A DNA stretch of 64,000 nt from an uncultured Gammaproteobacteria bacterium. Lineage in GTDB: Bacteria > Patescibacteriota > Patescibacteriia > Magasanikbacterales > GWA2-37-8. This document shows positions 8,450-58,665 of the stretch, in pieces. The first letter of the stretch is position 1, and every line of letters begins with the position of its first letter. The notes beneath the pieces are model-generated. The model had not been told where the DNA came from. It saw only the letters and a program-made list of their open reading frames with translations, and did not search any database. A program made the translations under genes and the position numbers. The stretch covers positions 46,962-110,961 of the forward strand of contig CAYZYP010000002.1 of assembly GCA_964482695.1 (NCBI GenBank), written 5' to 3'.

Positions 8450-9202
8450 ATGATCAGCATTATTATTCCGGTTTATAACCATGCCCACATCTTGGAACGC
8501 AGTTTATGTTCGGTTTGCGCGCAAACCTATCGGCCGCTTGAAGTGATTATTGTAAATGATGGCAGTACGGATAATTTTGAAAAGGTAATGAGCAAGATAA
8601 TTATGAAGAATATGGAGAGAGGAATAAATAATGAAATAAAAATCAAGGTGATAAATCAAGAAAATAAAGGGGCAAGCGCGGCTAGAAATAGGGGATTTAA
8701 AGAGGCTACAGGTAAGTATGTAATTTTTTGGGACGCGGATACAATCGCCCAGCCAAAAATGCTAGAAAAAATGTTAAATGCTTTACAAAATAATCCATCG
8801 GCTAGTTATGCTTATAGTCAATTTAAATTTGGTTGGAAAAAAATAAAAAGTCATGAATTTGACCCTGATTTACTTAAAAAAATAAATTATATTGATGCCA
8901 CTTCTTTGATTAGAAAAAAAGATTACGTAGAATGTTTTTCCGCCAAAGCCGGACCAGCCTTGGGCTGGGATGAATCACTAAAACGTTTTCAAGACTGGGA
9001 TTTGTGGCTAACAATGTTAGAAAAAAATAAAACAGGCGTTTTTGTGCCCGAAGTTTTATTTAAAAAAATAGTTAGTGGCCGCAAGGGGATTAGCAATTGG
9101 CTGCCCAGTTTTGTTTATAAATTGCCGTGGAAAGGTAAAAAAGTTTTAGAATATGAGCAAACCAAAGAAATAATTTTTAAAAAGCATTTAGACGGCGCAT
9201 AA
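8450..9202 (+). CDS. Glycosyltransferase family 2
   Basis: IIIPVYN....VIIVNDGSTD and DADT resemble the GT2 DXD region. Confidence 0.85.
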   Translation: MISIIIPVYNHAHILERSLCSVCAQTYRPLEVIIVNDGSTDNFEKVMSKIIMKNMERGINNEIKIKVINQENKGASAARNRGFKEATGKYVIFWDADTIAQPKMLEKMLNALQNNPSASYAYSQFKFGWKKIKSHEFDPDLLKKINYIDATSLIRKKDYVECFSAKAGPALGWDESLKRFQDWDLWLTMLEKNKTGVFVPEVLFKKIVSGRKGISNWLPSFVYKLPWKGKKVLEYEQTKEIIFKKHLDGA

Positions 9203-9260
9203 ACATTCTTTTTCGCGCTGCGGACTTCGCCGCGACTGCGAAAAAGAATGTTTATGCGCC
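9194..9260. terminator. Bidirectional palindrome shared by the converging GT2 and ligase-like genes
   Basis: 23-bp arms GGCGCATAAACATTCTTTTTCGC / GCGAAAAAGAATGTTTATGCGCC around a 21-nt GC-rich loop. Each arm also encodes the terminal Gly-Ala-stop of one of the two genes. Confidence 0.55.
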
Positions 9261-10706
9261 TTTTAAGTCGTAACTAATTTTAGTCATTATTGCCGTTAGT
9301 AGAATAATTCCCAAAACATGAAATAAAGCCGGTGAAGTGAGATTGATAATCAAAAGAGAAATAAGCATTGCTAAAATATATCTTTTATTTTTAATCCTAT
9401 ATTTTTTTAATATTAAAAATAAAAGATTAAAAATAAAAGATAACCAAATCAAAAATCCAACCATTCCCATTTCATCAATTATTTCCAAATACCCCCAGTC
9501 AAATTGAGTAGTGGTGATTTCTTTCTTAACGACTGGGCTATAGACAGTAACCGTGTCTCCCAAACCATTTCCCCAAAGTGGTTTTTGTTTTATTTTCTCC
9601 CAAATTTTTGGCAGTAGCATCATTCTTGATAGGGAGCTTTTTTCTATTGAAGGCGAGGCAATACTGCCAATTCGTAAGCCTAATAATTCCCAACCAAAAC
9701 TTTGTCCTCGGCTGGCGGCTAAATGAATAGATGAGAAAATTAAGATAAAAATAAAAATAGAACCAAGAGAATAAATAAGCCAGCGTTTCCAATATTGACG
9801 ACTAAATAAAAATAATAATCCGATCAAATAGGCTAGAATGTAAATACGAGTGAGGTTGAGAGAGAAAATGATAAGTAAAGACAAGATAATAAAATGATAA
9901 AATATTTTATCATTTTTGTCATCCCGAGCCACAGCGAGGGATCTCTGTCCGTTCACATAAGTATAGTTGGTATTTGTAGACAGAGATTCCTCGCTTCGCT
10001 CGGAATGACAGTCCTGTCTTGCAACTATTTGATAAATAAAATACAACAACACCGGCACTAACAACAAATGTTCATTAACTACCATCCGGTAAAAATTATT
10101 ATTTAAGTCAGTTATTTTGCCGCCAACAATATTTCTAAACCAATGATAATAGCTATCTTGCAACACTAAAATGTCAGAAGAATAGCTAATAAAAGTCAGT
10201 AAAACAAAAATTACATTGCCGATAATAGCCGCGCCGAGCATGGCAAAAGCCGTTTGTTTGAATTTTTCCGAATGCCATAACTCACATAAAGGAAAATAAT
10301 ACAAAAAGAAAAAATAGGGGATAGCGTCGGCAAAAATTTGGTGTGGATTATGGCCAGCATAATAACCAAGAGTAGAAGAAATAAAAACGATTAATAAAAT
10401 AGCTGAAAAAAGATAACAGATGATCTTGCTGTCTTTAAAAATTGTTTTGTATTTTTTATTATTTATTATCTGTATTGTATAAATTATTAATGAACAAATT
10501 AACAATAACGTTCTTAATGATGTCGAGTTAATGCTAAAAACCCCGCCCGCCCCGCCCAAAATAATTTCACCGGCAATAATATACCAACCACGTTCGTCTT
10601 TTTTTAAAAGTAAGTAAACAGTTGTGGCGAGTATAATAAAAGATAGAAAATAATTTATATACGACATTTCCGGGCTAAAAAAATACGAAAAAAGACGTGT
10701 GAACAC
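9252..10706 (-). CDS. O-antigen ligase/polymerase-like (Wzy_C-type) polytopic membrane protein carrying an in-frame palindromic-element insertion
   Basis: 484 aa, many TM helices, with a periplasmic-loop motif ...WGNGLGDT... resembling Wzy_C. The segment QDCHSERSEESLSTNTNYTYVNGQRSLAVARDDKNDK is encoded by repeat copy A. Confidence 0.55.
   Translation of the reverse strand: MFTRLFSYFFSPEMSYINYFLSFIILATTVYLLLKKDERGWYIIAGEIILGGAGGVFSINSTSLRTLLLICSLIIYTIQIINNKKYKTIFKDSKIICYLFSAILLIVFISSTLGYYAGHNPHQIFADAIPYFFFLYYFPLCELWHSEKFKQTAFAMLGAAIIGNVIFVLLTFISYSSDILVLQDSYYHWFRNIVGGKITDLNNNFYRMVVNEHLLLVPVLLYFIYQIVARQDCHSERSEESLSTNTNYTYVNGQRSLAVARDDKNDKIFYHFIILSLLIIFSLNLTRIYILAYLIGLLFLFSRQYWKRWLIYSLGSIFIFILIFSSIHLAASRGQSFGWELLGLRIGSIASPSIEKSSLSRMMLLPKIWEKIKQKPLWGNGLGDTVTVYSPVVKKEITTTQFDWGYLEIIDEMGMVGFLIWLSFIFNLLFLILKKYRIKNKRYILAMLISLLIINLTSPALFHVLGIILLTAIMTKISYDLKGA
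9918..10011. repeat. RPE-like palindromic element, copy A (full), in-frame inside the ligase-like CDS
   Basis: Left arm GTCATCCCGAGCCACAGCGAGGGATCTCTGTC, ~30-nt loop, right arm GACAGAGATTCCTCGCTTCGCTCGGAATGAC; homologous to the copies at 26855 and 11441. Confidence 0.8.
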
Positions 10707-11808: not shown

Positions 11809-12192
11809 GTGAATAAAAAGCCTGTGTTAGTAGATTGGAAAGAGGCGTACGTAGAGCATGGGGGGCTACTTGTAGTCCCTATCCGCTCCGGAGATGGGAT
11901 GTACCTCGGGGAGCTTCGACTCCAGATGCACGAGAGGAGAACTTCTACCTCGCAGTCGCAACACTGGCATGGGAACATGGATGCCGGCGGCATCTGTATC
12001 ACCCCCGACGAGGAGGCTGCCCGCCGAGCAGCCACCCCGGACTCTGTGCGGCGGGAGGTTGGCCAGTTCGACCCTCCCACCCCCCCTACCATCAGCCCCA
12101 AGGTCGAGGACGCCCTCGACGCCGATCTGGCAAACGGTCCCACGCTTGAGGCCGTACCCTCCGGCCTCAAAGGCGATCCCAGCGGGATCTAG
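11809..12192 (+). CDS. Hypothetical protein encoded in a GC-rich (about 65%) foreign-looking island; no recognisable family
   Basis: GTG start 7 nt after GGAGG. The frame has strongly G/C-biased third positions (GC3) in its distal two-thirds, whereas the overlapping ORFs on both strands lack this. Product: VNKKPVLVDWKEAYVEHGGLLVVPIRSGDGMYLGELRLQMHE...GDPSGI. Confidence 0.45.
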   Translation: MNKKPVLVDWKEAYVEHGGLLVVPIRSGDGMYLGELRLQMHERRTSTSQSQHWHGNMDAGGICITPDEEAARRAATPDSVRREVGQFDPPTPPTISPKVEDALDADLANGPTLEAVPSGLKGDPSGI

Positions 12193-18258: not shown

Positions 18259-18289
18259 TTGACACCACCACCATAGGTGGAGGTATAAT
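18259..18289 (+). promoter_or_regulatory. csoR promoter with a candidate operator (CCACC-ATA-GGTGG) between the -35 and -10
   Basis: TTGACA at 18259-18264, TATAAT at 18284-18289, and an inverted repeat at 18268-18280 inside the spacer. Confidence 0.5.
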
Positions 18290-18619: not shown

Positions 18620-18650
18620 TATAAAAATAATTTATCATTATACATATACA

Positions 18651-18790
18651 TTCTCAGCATTAAATTATTTTTAGACACATCAATTTTGCCCAGCGGCAAA
18701 ATTAACTTAAGTGCTCGGCAAAAATCCCGACTAACGTCGGGACCATGCATTTTTGCCTCGCAAACTCTAAAAATAATTTAATGCTGAGAA
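18651..18790. repeat. Nested-palindrome structured repeat, copy 1 (about 96-nt conserved core inside a locus-specific 22-bp inverted repeat)
   Basis: Outer arms TTCTCAGCATTAAATTATTTTT / AAAAATAATTTAATGCTGAGAA. The core TAGACACATCAATTTTGCCCAGCGGCAAAATTAACTTAAGTGCTCGGCAAAAATCCCGACTAACGTCGGGACCATGCATTTTTGCCTCGCAAACTCT contains two sub-hairpins. Confidence 0.8.
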
Positions 18791-18808
18791 TGTAATTAAA
18801 CAAAAAAT

Positions 18809-20265: not shown

Positions 20266-22611
20266 ATGTCTGCTAAATTATACTTACAAATTCAAGGCAT
20301 GCATTGCGCGTCGTGCGCTCGCTTGGTGGAAAATGGTTTAAAAAAGATAGCTGGTGTTAACGAAGTAAATGTTAATTTTTCCACCGAAAAAGCAAAGGTC
20401 ATTTTTGATGAAAATAAAACTAATATCACAAAATTAATAGAAGCTGTAAAAAAAGCTGGCTATAAAGCTGCTGTTAATGAACCAGGAGATCAAGACGCGG
20501 AACAACAAAGAAAACAGCAAGAAATTAAAATAATAAAAAATAATTTTCTTTTAAGCGCTTTTTTTAGTTTGCCAATGTTGTATTTCATGCTGTTGGATTT
20601 TTTTATTTTTTTACCCGGCAATGAATTTATAATGCCATTTATGGGTATTATTTCTTTAATTCTTGCCACCCCCATACAATTTATCATTGGCGCTGGTTTT
20701 TATCGGGGTCTGTGGAGCGGTTTAAAGATGAAAACTTTTAACATGGATAGTTTAATCGCCATTGGCACCAGCACGGCGTTTATTTATAGTTTAATTCAAT
20801 TTATAATTTACGTCATAAATAACGGGAGTGTGTTCGGTTTGAACGGAGAAAAAATTCCCGACTTATATTTTGAAACAGCGGCGTTTTTAATTACTTTCGT
20901 GATTTTGGGCAAATGGCTAGAAGCAAAAGCCAAAGGGCGTACTTCGGAAGCGATTAAAAAATTAATGGGTTTACAGCCAAAAACCGCGCGCGTTATAAAA
21001 AATAACGCGACAATGGACGTGCCAATTGAACAGGTTCAAGTCGGCGATACTATTGTTGTCAGGCCGGGCGAAAAAATTCCGGTTGACGGCGAAATTACCA
21101 AAGGTAACTCGTCTGTTGACGAATCAATGTTGACCGGCGAAAGTATTCCGGTGGAAAAAAATATTGGCGATAAAGTAGTTGGCGCGACGATAAATAAGCA
21201 CGGCAGTTTTGAATTTAAAGCCACCAAAGTCGGCAGTGAAACCGCTTTGGCGCAAATTGTTCGTTTGATAGAAGAAGCCCAAGGGTCAAAAGCGCCCATC
21301 CAAGCTTTTGCTGATAAAATTTCCGCCTATTTTGTGCCAACAGTCATTGGCTTGGCAATTCTTACTTTTATAATTTGGTTTTTTATACTAAGCGCTGGTT
21401 TTGCCTTTAGTATTATGGCGTTTACGGCCGTGATAGTTATTGCTTGCCCCTGCGCCCTGGGATTGGCCACACCAACCGCTATAATGGTAGGTACTGGTAA
21501 AGGAGCAGAATACGGGGTGTTGATTAAAGGCGGTGAACCATTAGAGGCAGCTTGTAAAATAAAAGCGATTGTTTTTGATAAAACAGGCACTTTGACCAAA
21601 GGAGAGCCGGAAGTGACTGATATTGTTGGCTTAGCGGAAAGTGACGAAGAAGAAATTATTAGTATTGCCGCAAGTTTAGAAAAATTATCAGAGCATCCTT
21701 TAGCCGAAGCAATTGTCAAATACGCGACAGAAGAATCAATTGTTTTAGAAGAGGCAGATAACTTTAAAGCTATTCCCGGTCATGGCGTGGAAGCGATTAT
21801 CAATGGCCAAAAATATTATTTTGGTAATAGAAAATTGATGACCGATATTGTGAATTTAGATGTCAGTAAGACAGAGAGAAAAATTCGTAAACTGGAAGAA
21901 GGTGGAAAAACTACCATGATACTATCTTCTGATAAAGAAATTCTCGGGTTAATCGCGGTGGCCGATACTTTGAAAGAAAGTACAGTGGAAGCGGTTCAGC
22001 AATTGCAAAAACGTGGGTTAGAAGTTTATATGATAACCGGTGATAATCGCCGCACAGCCGAAGCTATTGCTAAACAAGTTGGTATAAAAAATGTTTTAGC
22101 CGAAGTTTTGCCAGAAGATAAGGCGAATGAGATAAAAAAAATACAAGGCATGGGCGTGAGAGTAGCGATGGTGGGGGATGGAATTAACGACGCGCCAGCA
22201 TTGGCGCAAGCTGATTTGGGTATTGCTATGGGCGGGGGCACTGATGTGGCGATGGAAACCGGCGGCATTGTCATTATTAAAAATGATTTGCGCGATGTCC
22301 TCACCGCTATTAAACTAAGCCGCGAGACAATGGGGAAAATTAAACAAAATATGTTTTTTGCTTTGTTCTATAATGTTATTGGCATCCCCATTGCCGCGCG
22401 CGTTTTTGTTGGTTTGGGCTTAATTTTAAAGCCAGAACTAGCCGGACTAGCTATGGCCATGAGCTCTATTTCTGTTGTCAGTAATTCTTTGTTACTGCGC
22501 CGTTTTCACCCGCGTAAAAAAAATTATTTTTCAATTATCGCGCCAATTATTATGGGTGTGATTTTTTTGATATTGTTTGTTGTATTCGCCAAGTGGAGCG
22601 CGAAAGTATAA
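20266..22611 (+). CDS. copA: Copper-translocating P1B-type ATPase
   Basis: MHCASCA (HMA), CPC, DKTGTLT and GDGINDAP motifs. Confidence 0.95.
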
Positions 22612-23002
22612 TTATATTAAAAAATTTTACAGATAATATTTTTTTGTGGATAACTTCCATTGACCAAGAATAACTTTTCATCTAAACTATCTTTAGTTCT
22701 TTCAAATATATCAAGAGCGGTGCGAGGGAATCGGCCCGACAACCACCCAGCAACCCCCAAAGCGGGGGTGCTAATTCCGAACCCTAAATACAGGGAAAGA
22801 TAAGTTTTGTCTTGTCTACCCGCCTCTGGCGGAGACAAGGCAAAAAACGCTTTTTTAAAAAGGCCTTTTACTCTTTCTTTGTGATATATTTAGGGTAAAG
22901 GGCTTTTTTGTTTTATTATGTAAAAATTGTATTTCCATTCATAGACGGTTTAAGAATTAAAACAATTTAATTTTTAAACCGTCTATGACGGAAGGAGAAG
23001 AA

Positions 23003-23155
23003 ATGAAAAAAAAGGATAAAAAAAAATCCCCGCCCACACCCCCGCCTCTTTCACGAGAAAAATTAGAGGAGTTGGCCAATGCTGGCCAACTCCGTCCTTC
23101 TTTTTTCTGCGATTCGCGCATGGCCAAAGTAGCGGCCAACAACGCGGGTCGTTAG
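23003..23155 (+). CDS. Small hypothetical protein (50 aa), Pro/Lys-rich N-terminus
   Basis: Strong Shine-Dalgarno AAGGAG 5 nt upstream of the ATG, which is unusual here, and a 14-bp hairpin immediately before it. An antisense ORF (22957..23142) overlaps. Confidence 0.3.
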   Translation: MKKKDKKKSPPTPPPLSREKLEELANAGQLRPSFFCDSRMAKVAANNAGR

Positions 23156-23771
23156 CCACCGAGGCAATTCCCTCCCCATGGGTCGACCTCGGTGGCGACC
23201 CAATCCCTTTTCAAAAAATCATAAACTTAAAATTACATAAAAACACCCCGACTAAGTCAGAGTGTTTTTAAATTTTGCTTTCCAGTCAGTGAATATTTTT
23301 TGCAACATTGTTATCCCCGCGAAAGTGGGGGATCCAGAATAGTTGTAAAAAATACAGGGGACTGGAACGCAGTACCCATTTGGTTTTTTTTGGCGCGGAA
23401 CGCGCCTAAGAGAGGAGATTATTGCTCGGCAACCTCGATTCCGGGGTCGCTGAGATTATACCCGGAGAGTTGGAGGCTGCCCGGGTAGCGGAAGATGAGG
23501 CGGTCATAGGAGTACCACCTCGATGCTGAATTTTTGTGCGGGCGTGCTAGAATTTCCTTGTTTCTCGCCCGTTTTTCAGTAGAAGGCGTCCGTATTCCAC
23601 CGAAGAAAAAAATGGTGGTTTTTTTTCCATCTTTTTCCAGTGTTGCGTTCAACATGTTTTTTGCCATCGCTTCTTCCTTTCTTGTAACGTGGTTGTACGA
23701 CCAGAATTGGATGAAAGAATACCAAAGAGAGAGAGTTGTCAAGAAAAAGCGATGCTGATATAATTACTCAC

Positions 23772-24914
23772 ATGAATCTAATAATCCACCCAGACGAACT
23801 ATTTCTTAAAGGCGCTAATCAGCGCTTGTTTTACGATCAATTAATTAATAATTTAAAGCAAATATTTAAACAAATAAAAGTTGAAAGAACAGAAAGCGGT
23901 TTGTGGGTAGAAAATTTTGAAGAAAATAAACTAAGTCAATTAGCCAAAGTTCCTGGTATTTCCAATTTCGCGGTAGGGGAGAGAGGGGGAAATGGAGTGG
24001 AGGAAATAAAGAAAAATGTTTTAAATTTATTGAAACAAATGTCTCGGGATGACAAAGATGCTGTAACTTTTCGCGTTACTACCACTCGTTCCTATAAAGG
24101 TTACCCACTATCTTCCAAACAGCTAGACATAGAAATTGGCGATTTTGTGCGACAAAAATACGGTTGGCAAGTTAATTTAAAAAATTACGATTTAAACATC
24201 TCTGTTAATATTGGCAAAGAGAATGCCACAGTCTATTCAAATCCAATTGAAGGTGCTGGCGGCCTGCCAACTGGTGTTTCTGGCAAAATGCTTTGTCTTT
24301 TGTCCGGTGGCATAGACAGCCCGGTGGCGGCCTATAAAATGATGACTAGGGGCGCGGAAGTAGGTTTGATTCATTTTCAAAATCAAACCTCGGTTACAGA
24401 CGAAGTGAGCGAGAAAATTTTTGATTTAGCCAAAATATTATCTTTATACCAGTCTAAAATTAAAATTTTCATTATTCCTTTTGCTGATCTTCAAAAACAA
24501 GTAGTGATGAGTATTCCGGCCGAATATCGCATGCTTGTAACACGTCGCTTATTTTTTAAAATAGCCGAAAATATTGCCAAAAACAATAATTACCAAGCAC
24601 TAATAACTGGCGATAGCCTTGGTCAAGTGGCTTCACAAACAGTAGAAAACCTAACTGTTACCAGCCAAGCGGTGGAAATGTTAAAATTTTCACCATTGAT
24701 TGGTGCTAATAAAAAAGATATAATGGAGATGGCAAAACAAATCGGCACTTACGAAATATCTACCAGGCCATACGAAGATTGTTGCAGTTTATTTGTCGCC
24801 AAACATCCACAAACCAGAGCAAAAATAAATGACGTTTTAAAACTAGAAAAAAATCTATCTTTGCCGGATCTTGACAAAACAACCTTTAAATCATACTATA
24901 TTAGTAATAATTAG
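23772..24914 (+). CDS. thiI: tRNA 4-thiouridine(8) synthase / thiamine sulfur-carrier adenylyltransferase ThiI
   Basis: THUMP-like N-terminus and PP-loop SGGIDSP. Start chosen at MNLIIHPDELFLKG; the ORF track gives 23736. Confidence 0.88.
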   Translation: MNLIIHPDELFLKGANQRLFYDQLINNLKQIFKQIKVERTESGLWVENFEENKLSQLAKVPGISNFAVGERGGNGVEEIKKNVLNLLKQMSRDDKDAVTFRVTTTRSYKGYPLSSKQLDIEIGDFVRQKYGWQVNLKNYDLNISVNIGKENATVYSNPIEGAGGLPTGVSGKMLCLLSGGIDSPVAAYKMMTRGAEVGLIHFQNQTSVTDEVSEKIFDLAKILSLYQSKIKIFIIPFADLQKQVVMSIPAEYRMLVTRRLFFKIAENIAKNNNYQALITGDSLGQVASQTVENLTVTSQAVEMLKFSPLIGANKKDIMEMAKQIGTYEISTRPYEDCCSLFVAKHPQTRAKINDVLKLEKNLSLPDLDKTTFKSYYISNN

Positions 24915-57540: not shown

Positions 57541-57663
57541 ATTAAGCGACATAGTATGGTTCTTTTTTATCAAAAAATATACTCTTACTAATAGCTAACC
57601 ATACTGTGTCGCTTAATCTGCCCACGTAAAGCGACATTTTTTAAAATGTCGCTTTACGTGGGC
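57541..57663. promoter_or_regulatory. Two adjacent palindromes sharing the motif AAGCGACA(T/C) directly upstream of the xer gene; candidate dif-like site or operator
   Basis: IR1 ATTAAGCGACATAGTATGGTT...AACCATACTGTGTCGCTTAAT (57541-57617); IR2 is a perfect palindrome GCCCACGTAAAGCGACATTTT TT AAAATGTCGCTTTACGTGGGC (57620-57663). Confidence 0.5.
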
Positions 57664-57705
57664 TATGTGAGCTACAATATATCTTTTATCAATGTGGAAA
57701 ATATT

Positions 57706-58665
57706 ATGCACAAATCAAACCAGCCTATTACTTACCATATTCCTAATTTTTTGGATTTTTGTGAAGTGGAAAAGGGTTTGAGTCCAGTTACCACCAAAAA
57801 CTATCATAATTTCTTAAAGGTGTTCATTAACTGGCTAAAAGAGCAAAAAAAATCGCTTTTAAGGCCTCATGAACTCACTCCAGAGCATATCTGGCAGTAC
57901 CGGCTATATTTATCGCGTAAAAACGATTTAAAAGGCAAATACATCAAAAAAACCACTCAAAACTACTATCTAATAGCTTTGCGCAACATGCTAAACTATT
58001 TTGCTGAAAAAGATATCATTTCTTTGCCTTCGGACAAAATTAAATTACCTAAAATAACTGACAAAGATAAAAAAATAAAATTCTTACGTTTTGATCAATT
58101 AGAAAAATTAATGTCTATGCCAGACACTTCTAAGACCGAGGGTTTGCGTGATCGGGCGATTTTAGAAATCCTCTTCTCTACTGGTATGCGAGTTTCCGAA
58201 CTTACGTCGCTTAATATTAGATCATTTAATATTGAAAATTTAGAAAAAAATAATTTTATTGAACAAGAATTAAGTATTAGTGGCAAAGGTGGTTCTACTA
58301 GAACTATCTATTTTTCCGCAAGTGCTTTAAAGTGGTTGGCACAATACCTTAAAACCAGAAAAGACATGAACACTCCTCTATTTATCAACTATAAAAAAGA
58401 CAAAGACGATGATGAACATCGCCTTACTCCGCGCTCTGTTGAACGGATTGTCAGAAAATATGCCGTTATGGCAGGGCTGCCTGTTGATGCCACTCCGCAC
58501 ACACTTCGCCATAGTTTTGCCACTGATTTATTAGAACACGGCGCGGACGTGCGCTCGGTGCAAGAGCTATTGGGACACAAAAACATCGTTACCACGCAAA
58601 TTTATACTCATGTTACCAATCCTCACTTAAAAGATATTCATAAACGATTTCATAGTGGAACATAA
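57706..58665 (+). CDS. Tyrosine site-specific recombinase (XerC/XerD/XerH-like)
   Basis: N-terminal core-binding domain and catalytic R...HTLRHSFAT...Y region ending ...GHKNIVTTQIYTHV. Start chosen at MHKSNQPITYHIP. Confidence 0.88.
   Translation: MHKSNQPITYHIPNFLDFCEVEKGLSPVTTKNYHNFLKVFINWLKEQKKSLLRPHELTPEHIWQYRLYLSRKNDLKGKYIKKTTQNYYLIALRNMLNYFAEKDIISLPSDKIKLPKITDKDKKIKFLRFDQLEKLMSMPDTSKTEGLRDRAILEILFSTGMRVSELTSLNIRSFNIENLEKNNFIEQELSISGKGGSTRTIYFSASALKWLAQYLKTRKDMNTPLFINYKKDKDDDEHRLTPRSVERIVRKYAVMAGLPVDATPHTLRHSFATDLLEHGADVRSVQELLGHKNIVTTQIYTHVTNPHLKDIHKRFHSGT

What the first reader, a model, noticed from the sequence alone, without database searches (positions are those of the whole stretch)
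22640..23760. A 1.1-kb ORF-poor, GC-elevated region between copA and thiI with multiple stable hairpins and a Shine-Dalgarno-bearing 50-aa ORF
In an otherwise gene-packed window this stretch has no ORF over 107 aa and no conserved protein motif on either strand. It is richer in G+C than its surroundings and contains several well-formed hairpins. One is a GNRA-tetraloop hairpin, TCCCCGC-GAAA-GTGGGGA (23315-23333). Another is a 14-bp stem right in front of a 50-aa ORF (23003-23155) that carries a strong AAGGAG Shine-Dalgarno, which native genes here mostly lack. A further GC-rich stem-loop with a U-run, CGGGCG-N21-CGCCCGTTTTT (~23538-23576), lies about 200 nt upstream of thiI. A segment GGGGTCGCTGAGATTATACCC (23445-23465) carries the CUGAGA...ACCC core reminiscent of the THI-box, but the 3' half of the TPP riboswitch consensus is not recognisable. 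The region may hold an uncharacterised cis-regulatory RNA or sRNA, and/or a decayed foreign insertion.
Basis: partly seen in the sequence, partly recalled or inferred. Interest (0 to 1): 0.5.

Follow-up and report, generated by a model that had tools for sequence, protein, structure and literature searches.

The report
SAM riboswitch controlling a tiny gene
The "empty" DNA between copA and thiI in this candidate-phyla-radiation (CPR) bacterium starts with a standard SAM-sensing riboswitch that appears to switch a conserved 50-amino-acid gene of unknown function, followed by about 530 bases of hairpin-rich DNA found only in this lineage.

Summary
The hairpins, the 50-aa ORF with an AAGGAG ribosome-binding site (SD) and the lack of long ORFs are all real. 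Folding is unusually stable: z -3.5 to -11, against a window mean of -0.7. A SAM-I (S-box) riboswitch lies at 22705-22806 (+), scoring 55.6 bits against Rfam's threshold of 44.4. It has a promoter and a terminator/antiterminator platform.

The only homologous locus found, L089, comes from a related CPR genome. It has the same layout after copA: SAM-I aptamer (59.7 bits), terminator, long hairpin, SD, 48-aa ORF, then a hairpin with identical stems. P3 carries two compensatory pair changes. The ORF's last 26 codons differ mostly at third positions (pS 0.70, pN 0.13), so it codes for protein. That protein family has two members among about 15 billion proteins.

Homology ends at 23210. The remaining ~530 nt match no Rfam, Pfam or protein family, and the only DNA resemblance is a 37-nt hairpin motif. 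The proposed THI-box is not supported. thiI has its own conserved promoter at 23736-23764.

Verdict: a known riboswitch class controlling a new, tiny, unexplained gene, plus an unexplained spacer. Moderate interest.

The parts
22660..22688 (+). Candidate sigma-70 promoter of the riboswitch unit (TTGACC, 17 nt, TAAACT)
   Evidence: Consensus scan. The -35 TTGAC is conserved at the same place in L089 (alignment A1). No terminator-like hairpin lies between the copA stop at 22611 and this promoter, so copA read-through could also enter the riboswitch. That last point is inference.
22705..22806 (+). SAM-I (S-box) riboswitch aptamer: P1 22705-12/22799-806, P2 22717-48, P3 22749-72, P4 22776-98, pseudoknot 22731-34/22777-80
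   Evidence: Rfam RF00162: 55.6 bits against gathering score 44.4, E 4e-10, model positions 1-108 of 108. The L089 orthologue scores 59.7 bits. Outside P1, the differences from L089 are two compensatory pairs in P3 plus unpaired internal-loop positions.
22806..22844 (+). Hairpin 1 of the expression platform
   Evidence: -23.7 kcal/mol here and -15.6 kcal/mol in L089. The sequence has diverged but the structure is kept. No U-run follows it directly.
22857..22913 (+). Terminator hairpin 2 (core GCCUUUUACUCU / AGGGUAAAGGGC, then U6). Bases 22872-22895 can instead pair with the aptamer's P4/J4-1 strand (22782-22800) as an antiterminator.
   Evidence: Both alternative folds come out of RNAfold. All 19 antiterminator pairs are identical in L089. 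The terminator stem has one U-A to C-G double change, two one-sided changes that keep pairing, and one pair lost in L089.
22939..22988 (+). Long AT-rich hairpin just upstream of the ribosome-binding site
   Evidence: -32.4 kcal/mol, z about -8. L089 has a hairpin of the same size and energy (-32.5) at the same place, with an unrelated sequence. Function unknown.
22992..22997 (+). Shine-Dalgarno AAGGAG, 5 nt before the ATG
   Evidence: Read from the sequence. L089 has GAGGAGG at the same spacing.
23003..23155 (+). Small protein gene, 50 aa: MKKKDKKKSPPTPPPLSREKLEELANAGQLRPSFFCDSRMAKVAANNAGR
   Evidence: One real homologue among 1.84 billion cluster representatives: P0124, 48 aa, 62% identity, E 1e-8, encoded at the same position in L089. 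Last 26 codons: differences by codon position 4/4/13, pS 0.70, pN 0.13. The length difference is 6 nt. No Pfam, NCBIfam or PDB match. AF2 mean pLDDT 69, three short helices.
23146..23201 (+). Conserved 3' hairpin that includes the stop codon (GGGUC..GCCACCGAGG, loop, CCUCGGUGGCGACCC), followed by AAUCCCUUUU. Probable end of the transcription unit.
   Evidence: -38 kcal/mol in both genomes. Both stem arms are 100% identical, while the loop differs (22 vs 27 nt). Homology to L089 stops at 23210.
23238..23270 (-). Terminator-like hairpin, better formed on the minus strand
   Evidence: Scan reports 15 pairs plus a U-run on the minus strand. Two G-U pairs on the minus strand are C-A mismatches on the plus strand (read from the sequence).
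23275..23372 (+). Rod-like hairpin of about 95 nt with a GAAA tetraloop (23321-23324)
   Evidence: -41.3 kcal/mol, z -6.0. The core 23309-23345 is 89% identical to L016 1564-1598, which lies between csoR and the next copper-cluster gene in another CPR contig. No other copy turned up in the 88 loci held at the time. Function unknown.
23373..23735 (.). Remaining lineage-specific spacer with several hairpins. It contains the gene-caller ORF82 (23419-23667, minus strand) and the supposed THI-box at 23443-23463.
   Evidence: No Rfam hit at E <= 10 apart from noise. No Pfam hit for any stop-to-stop segment. ORF82 has no homologue, no frame-specific codon signal and AF2 pLDDT 42. No blastn or tblastx match in the fetched loci.
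23736..23764 (+). thiI promoter (TTGTCA, 17 nt, TG-n-TATAAT), ending 7 nt before the thiI ATG at 23772
   Evidence: 11 of 12 consensus match with an extended -10. It is the only part of the region conserved upstream of thiI in the closest ThiI relative, L006.

Best explanation
The 5' half of the region (about 22660-23205) is one self-contained transcription unit.

1. A promoter drives a SAM-I riboswitch.
2. When SAM is bound, the aptamer holds its P4/J4-1 strand. The downstream hairpin at 22857-22909 plus its U-run then forms, and transcription stops.
3. When SAM is scarce, the P4/J4-1 strand (22782-22800) pairs with 22872-22895. This breaks the terminator, and RNA polymerase reads on.
4. The read-through transcript passes a long structured hairpin and reaches a Shine-Dalgarno-led gene for a 50-aa protein. 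The unit ends at a strongly conserved hairpin at 23146-23201.

The small protein is therefore predicted to be made when SAM is low. Its function is unknown.

Shown: aptamer identity, alternative pairings, conservation, coding signature.
Inferred: SAM binding, the off-switch logic, the promoter and the transcript ends.

The 3' half (23210-23735) is not part of this unit. It is lineage-specific, hairpin-rich DNA lying between a terminator and the separate thiI promoter. Most likely it is non-functional or remnant DNA left by rearrangement in a variable genomic slot.
For: - Rfam SAM-I hits above the gathering score in the window (55.6 bits) and in the orthologous locus L089 (59.7 bits).
- Window 21950-23210 aligns to L089 1560-2745 at 73.6% identity.
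- Within that, the aptamer is about 94% identical, with two compensatory pairs in P3. The pseudoknot and P2 are invariant.
- The 19-bp antiterminator and the terminator are both predicted as low-energy folds. Each is the minimum-free-energy fold in one of the two genomes, and all 19 antiterminator pairs are conserved.
- The ORF has a conserved SD, ATG and stop, an in-frame length difference, and pS 0.70 against pN 0.13 over its last 26 codons.
- The pre-SD hairpin is conserved in structure but not in sequence.
- thiI has its own conserved promoter. In L089 the unit is followed by other genes, not thiI.
Against: - Only two genomes carry the unit, so covariation support is thin: three double changes in all.
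- P1 is weak in L089, with about 5 contiguous pairs.
- The promoter's -10 (TAAACT) is poor, and promoter-like sites in the region are not more frequent than in shuffles.
- The regulated product is not a Met/Cys/SAM gene and has no recognisable function. The usual sanity check from genomic context therefore fails.
- A hairpin plus T-run inside the ORF (23068-23093) is flagged as terminator-like. It could stop transcription before the ORF ends.
- There are no expression data.
Confidence: 0.72

Rival explanations
1. The riboswitch controls a non-coding RNA rather than a protein. On this view the '50-aa ORF' region and its perfectly conserved 3' hairpin act as an RNA, in the way B12 riboswitches control EutX/Rli55, or the terminated riboswitch itself acts in trans like Listeria SreA/SreB. 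Those comparisons are from my own knowledge, not tested here.
For: The stems of the 3' hairpin are 100% identical over about 25 nt, although neighbouring synonymous sites are saturated. An ORF-internal hairpin keeps pairing through a T-A to C-G change. This part of the region has the lowest folding z-score, -11.
Against: Differences are concentrated at third codon positions (4/4/13) and dN/dS is about 0.08 in the C-terminal half. The SD, start and stop are conserved, and the indel is a multiple of three. The compensatory change inside the ORF is also synonymous, so it is compatible with coding. A dual-function RNA is not excluded.
Confidence: 0.12
2. The whole stretch is a long SAM-responsive leader of the thiI-iscS-nifU sulfur-transfer operon, or a decayed TPP/THI element in front of thiI.
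For: The riboswitch and thiI are on the same strand. The genes downstream are sulfur-trafficking genes. A CUGAGA...ACCC string lies at 23443-23463.
Against: No TPP hit at E <= 10. Several terminator-like hairpins lie in between. thiI has an 11/12 consensus promoter ending 7 nt before its ATG, conserved in L006. In L089 the same riboswitch-ORF unit is followed by a methyltransferase-like gene and a genuine TPP riboswitch, not thiI. None of the 80 other CopA loci has thiI downstream.
Confidence: 0.04
3. The 3' half (23210-23735) holds a functional element of its own: either an orphan minus-strand gene (ORF82, 23667-23419, with an AAGGAAG SD and the minus-strand terminator at 23270-23238) or a new structured RNA that includes the GAAA-capped rod hairpin.
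For: Gene callers predict ORF82. The layout is tidy: divergent from thiI, convergent with the small ORF, and ending at a terminator that folds better on the minus strand. Folding z is -7.3 on the minus strand and -4.5 on the plus strand over 446 nt. The 37-nt hairpin core recurs in a copper cluster of another CPR contig.
Against: ORF82 has no homologue among 5.8 billion clusters, no Pfam or NCBIfam hit, no frame-specific codon bias and AF2 pLDDT 42. There is no Rfam hit. The closest relative L089 has nothing homologous. With no second sequence, covariation cannot be tested.
Confidence: 0.2
4. The region is inert decayed foreign DNA, and the riboswitch is a relic that no longer regulates anything.
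For: The locus is a variable slot. Synteny PriA-Memo-PeptS11-[variable]-thiI holds in L008 with different cargo. G+C is above the genome mean. No long ORF is present.
Against: Relics do not keep a full-length aptamer above the gathering score in two genomes whose synonymous sites are saturated. Nor do they keep compensatory stem changes, an intact terminator/antiterminator pair, or a downstream ORF under purifying selection. This rival stays plausible for 23210-23735 only.
Confidence: 0.06

Closest known systems
SAM-I / S-box riboswitch (Rfam RF00162), e.g. Bacillus subtilis yitJ and metI leaders
   Same: Four-helix aptamer with the conserved core, a P2-loop/J3-4 pseudoknot, a score above the gathering threshold, and an off-switch design with mutually exclusive terminator and antiterminator.
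   Different: The host is a CPR/Patescibacteria genome. The controlled gene is a 50-aa protein of unknown function rather than a Met/Cys/SAM metabolism or transport gene. The antiterminator is long-range: the P4/J4-1 strand pairs about 75 nt downstream, enclosing an extra hairpin. The unit sits directly behind copA with no terminator in between.
Riboswitch-controlled or riboswitch-derived regulatory RNAs: Listeria SreA/SreB, Enterococcus EutX and Listeria Rli55, and the Clostridium acetobutylicum S-box antisense RNA (Andre et al. 2008, listed in the references of PMC5473149)
   Same: A riboswitch that is not followed by an ordinary metabolic gene. The downstream RNA is highly structured and conserved.
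   Different: Here the downstream segment carries a clear coding signature. No target or antisense partner is evident. Trans action was not testable.
TPP riboswitch / THI-box (RF00059)
   Same: Only a CUGAGA...ACCC string at 23443-23463.
   Different: No covariance-model match at E <= 10. A genuine TPP riboswitch scoring 76.7 bits does exist in the relative L089, but in non-homologous DNA.

Membership tests
SAM-I riboswitch (RF00162) | Covariance-model score at or above Rfam's gathering threshold over the full model | tested here: met
   55.6 bits against 44.4, model positions 1-108 of 108. The orthologue in L089 scores 59.7 bits.
SAM-I riboswitch (RF00162) | P1-P4 four-way junction with base pairing maintained in evolution | tested here: met
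   P2, P3 and P4 are fully paired in both genomes. P3 has two double (compensatory) changes, C-G to U-A. P1 has 7 of 8 pairs here and is weaker in L089. Only two sequences were available.
SAM-I riboswitch (RF00162) | Pseudoknot between the P2 loop and J3/4 | tested here: met
   UCGG (22731-34) is complementary to CCGA (22777-80). It is invariant in L089, so there is no covariation evidence.
SAM-I riboswitch (RF00162) | Expression platform with mutually exclusive terminator and antiterminator | tested here: met
   The terminator is 22857-22909 plus U6. The 19-bp antiterminator is 22782-22800 paired with 22872-22895. Both appear as predicted folds, and all antiterminator pairs are conserved. This is computational only.
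SAM-I riboswitch (RF00162) | Selective binding of S-adenosylmethionine | not testable with these tools
   Requires in-line probing, ITC or equilibrium dialysis.
SAM-I riboswitch (RF00162) | Downstream gene belongs to methionine, cysteine or SAM metabolism or transport (the usual context, not strictly defining) | tested here: not met
   The downstream gene is a 50-aa protein with no Pfam, NCBIfam or PDB match and a single homologue.
TPP riboswitch (RF00059) | Covariance-model match to the THI element | tested here: not met
   No TPP hit on either strand of 22500-23900 at E <= 10. The same search method finds a 76.7-bit TPP riboswitch in L089.
T-box leader, RNase P RNA, tmRNA, tRNA | Covariance-model or ARAGORN match | tested here: not met
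   No such Rfam hits at E <= 10. ARAGORN finds nothing.

The most novel reading that the evidence does not exclude
The 50-aa protein founds a new, very narrowly distributed family of small proteins induced by SAM starvation in CPR bacteria. It sits at the 3' end of the copper-efflux operon, with no terminator between them. Its expression would then combine copper-induced copA read-through with low SAM. Its invariant 3' hairpin would be a second functional RNA or recombination signal that marks the edge of the shared segment.
Probability: 0.3. Interest if true: 0.55.

Novelty: new member of a known kind. Interest (0 to 1): 0.38.

Why it matters
SAM-I riboswitches are textbook elements, so the RNA itself is not new. 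Two things are worth knowing.

First, native riboswitch regulation in CPR/Patescibacteria is barely documented. My full-text searches found no paper describing a native riboswitch there. These ultrasmall, metabolically dependent bacteria must manage an externally supplied methionine/SAM budget.

Second, riboswitch ligands are reliable clues to gene function. A conserved 50-aa protein under SAM control is a concrete, testable lead to an unknown SAM-related function.

The result also corrects annotation. Gene callers placed a spurious 73-aa minus-strand gene over the riboswitch. It also removes a false THI-box lead.

Tried and rejected
- **TPP, T-box, RNase P, tmRNA.** No Rfam hit at E <= 10 and no ARAGORN hit.
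- **thiI leader.** Rejected because thiI has its own conserved promoter.
- **Decayed gene in 23156-23771.**
  - Pfam on all stop-to-stop segments of at least 39 aa gave nothing.
  - tblastx and blastn against the 86 non-window loci held then gave nothing beyond a 37-nt motif.
  - tblastn with the L089 methyltransferase-like protein gave nothing.
  - A concatenated six-frame query to the 5.8-billion-cluster database returned nothing, but it also failed to recover the known self-match P0121. I count that search as inconclusive.
- **ORF82 as a real gene.** No homologues, no codon signal, AF2 pLDDT 42. Unsupported, but not excluded.
- **Riboswitch unit as a general part of the CPR copper cluster.** Rejected. 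Eighty CopA loci at 67-82% identity show no riboswitch-unit homology or small ORF by blastn, nhmmer and tblastn. The 18 closest also have no SAM-I hit by Rfam.
- **Repeat or mobile-element copies inside the window.** None. No tandem repeats of note.
- **Plasmid and phage databases.** No match.
- **Viral-contig scan with the 3' hairpin pattern.** It hit 12 contigs, but all are one high-G+C phage gene in which the string codes for ATEAASADLGGDP. The flanks are unrelated, so I judge this a coincidence. Three further viral scans found nothing.
- **Weak HMMER hits P0123 and P0125.** These are repetitive or low-complexity proteins and were dismissed.
- **Genome-contig scan with ThiI.** It returned only distant Lachnospiraceae loci.
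- **G+C-rich island at 11.7-12.3 kb.** It shares nothing with this region and reads as a protein-coding ORF.

Full report
**Context.** The window comes from a groundwater metagenome contig of a CPR/Patescibacteria bacterium. The identical thiI locus is on JGI Ga0103681_1000063. The nearest ThiI relatives are Magasanikbacteria/Parcubacteria-type proteins at 67% identity or less. The finding lies between copA (20266-22611; P-type ATPase with an HMA domain) and thiI (ATG 23772). The gene order PriA-Memo-peptidase S11-[variable]-thiI-RNase H-like-Rrf2-iscS-nifU is kept in a relative, L008, with different cargo in the variable slot. Here that slot holds a csoR/HMA-DsbD/copA copper cluster plus the finding.

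**Observation.** The structure is more than chance. Five 300-nt windows across the region fold with z between -3.5 and -11.2. Sixty-nine background windows give a mean of -0.66 and sd 1.8. G+C is above that of thiI but similar to copA.

Rfam at gathering thresholds reports a full-length SAM-I riboswitch at 22705-22806 on the plus strand: 55.6 bits against 44.4, E 4e-10. A permissive scan of 22500-23900 on both strands adds only noise, mostly hairpin-like miRNA models hitting the AT-rich hairpin. It gives no TPP, T-box, RNase P or tmRNA match. ARAGORN finds nothing.

**Finding a relative.**
- ThiI-based look-ups gave relatives whose upstream DNA shares only the thiI promoter with the window.
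- Eighty CopA loci at 67-82% identity share nothing with the region apart from one 37-nt motif.
- The key came from the 50-aa ORF. An exhaustive HMMER search of 1.84 billion cluster representatives found one genuine homologue, a 48-aa protein at 62% identity, E 1e-8.
- Its contig, L089, comes from the same sample as the closest ThiI relative L006 and shows the same layout after copA. In order: promoter, SAM-I aptamer (59.7 bits), terminator region, long hairpin, GAGGAGG, 48-aa ORF, hairpin.
- Window 21950-23210 aligns to L089 1560-2745 at 73.6% identity. Homology stops at 23210.

**The riboswitch.** The aptamer is about 94% identical between the two genomes. Outside P1, the differences are two compensatory C-G to U-A pairs in P3 plus unpaired internal-loop positions. 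P2, P4 and the pseudoknot are invariant. Downstream lies a first hairpin (22806-22844) whose sequence has diverged while its structure is kept. A fully conserved segment follows, ACUCUUUCUUUGUG...UAUUUAGGGUA. This segment can pair in two ways.
- With the aptamer's P4/J4-1 strand (22782-22800 with 22872-22895), giving 19 pairs that are all conserved.
- Within a hairpin at 22857-22909 that is followed by U6.

Each alternative is the minimum-free-energy fold in one of the two genomes. The choice also depends on whether the U-run is included in the folded segment. This is the classical S-box logic: SAM locks P4 and P1, the terminator forms, and transcription stops. The logic is inferred from sequence and was not tested.

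**The small gene.** AAGGAG lies 5 nt before the ATG at 23003. The SD, start and stop are conserved in L089, and the length difference is 6 nt. Over the last 26 codons the differences fall 4/4/13 by codon position, with pS 0.70 and pN 0.13. That is the signature of a translated, constrained protein, with the motif GQLRPSFFCD..MAKV.ANNAGR. The family has two members among about 15 billion proteins. It has no Pfam, NCBIfam or PDB match. The AF2 model is low-confidence and helical.

Three RNA features around the gene are also kept.
- A pre-SD hairpin of about -32 kcal/mol is present in both genomes with unrelated sequences.
- An ORF-internal hairpin keeps its pairing through a change that is both compensatory and synonymous.
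- A 3' hairpin (23146-23201) that includes the stop codon has stems 100% identical, while its loop differs in length.

I read the 3' hairpin as the end of the unit. Its sequence-level conservation is stronger than a plain terminator needs, and that remains unexplained.

**The rest (23210-23735).**
- Nothing here is homologous to L089, which instead carries a methyltransferase-like gene and a genuine TPP riboswitch.
- There is no Rfam hit, and no Pfam hit for any reading-frame segment. tblastx and blastn against the fetched loci give nothing except the 37-nt core of the GAAA-capped rod hairpin. That core recurs between csoR and the next gene in L016.
- The gene-caller ORF82 on the minus strand has no homologue, no codon signal and a very poor AF2 model.
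- The hairpin at 23238-23270 is better formed on the minus strand. The rod hairpin is better formed on the plus strand.
- I cannot assign a function. Remnant DNA in a recombination-prone slot is the most economical reading, but an orphan gene or a novel RNA is not excluded.

**thiI.** A TTGTCA, 17 nt, TG-n-TATAAT promoter at 23736-23764 ends 7 nt before the thiI ATG. It is the only segment conserved upstream of thiI in L006. thiI is therefore transcribed on its own, apparently without a leader. It is not controlled from the riboswitch.

**Comparison and verdict.** The RNA meets every computational membership criterion for SAM-I. Only ligand binding could not be tested, and the usual metabolic gene context is absent. 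It is a new member of a known class, found in an under-studied phylum and attached to a new, tiny gene. My literature searches found no report linking SAM riboswitches to copA, or describing native riboswitches in Patescibacteria. Interest is moderate.

Noticed in passing
window 11809-12192 (+): The 'GC-rich island' is a 127-aa ORF at about 62% G+C, with a TTGACA promoter, a GGAGG SD and a GTG start. It has no Rfam or NCBIfam hit and shares no sequence with the finding. It looks like a foreign orphan gene, not an RNA.
   Followed up: partly
window 12315, 12389, 18726, 39303, 61167: Hairpins with the stem CCCGAC-loop-(G)TCGGG occur 5 times, against 0.07 expected. At least three lie in gaps between long ORFs, so they look like a recurrent 'house' terminator. 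23247-23263 is a degenerate copy.
   Followed up: partly
window 18650-18797: Between csoR and the HMA/DsbD gene lies a 26-bp perfect inverted repeat, CATTCTCAGCATTAAATTATTTTTAG...CTAAAAATAATTTAATGCTGAGAATG. It encloses two further hairpins.
   Followed up: no
window 18259-18288: The csoR promoter has a palindrome, CCACC-ACCATA-GGTGG, between TTGACA and TATAAT. This is probably the CsoR-family operator.
   Followed up: no
window 23736-23772: The thiI promoter's -10 ends 7 nt before the ATG, so the thiI mRNA would be leaderless. In L006 the same promoter sits about 37 nt before the start.
   Followed up: partly
L089 3332-3425: A genuine TPP riboswitch (76.7 bits) follows a methyltransferase-like gene that appears to have a hydrophobic N-terminus. 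A terminator and a new gene at the contig end come after it.
   Followed up: partly
window 22617-22838 (-): Public gene calls place a 73-aa minus-strand 'gene' exactly over the SAM riboswitch. This is a spurious annotation.
   Followed up: yes
window 9901-10200, 57601-57900, 9001-9300: These 300-nt windows have unusually low folding z-scores (-7.2, -6.4, -5.7) compared with the rest of the window.
   Followed up: no
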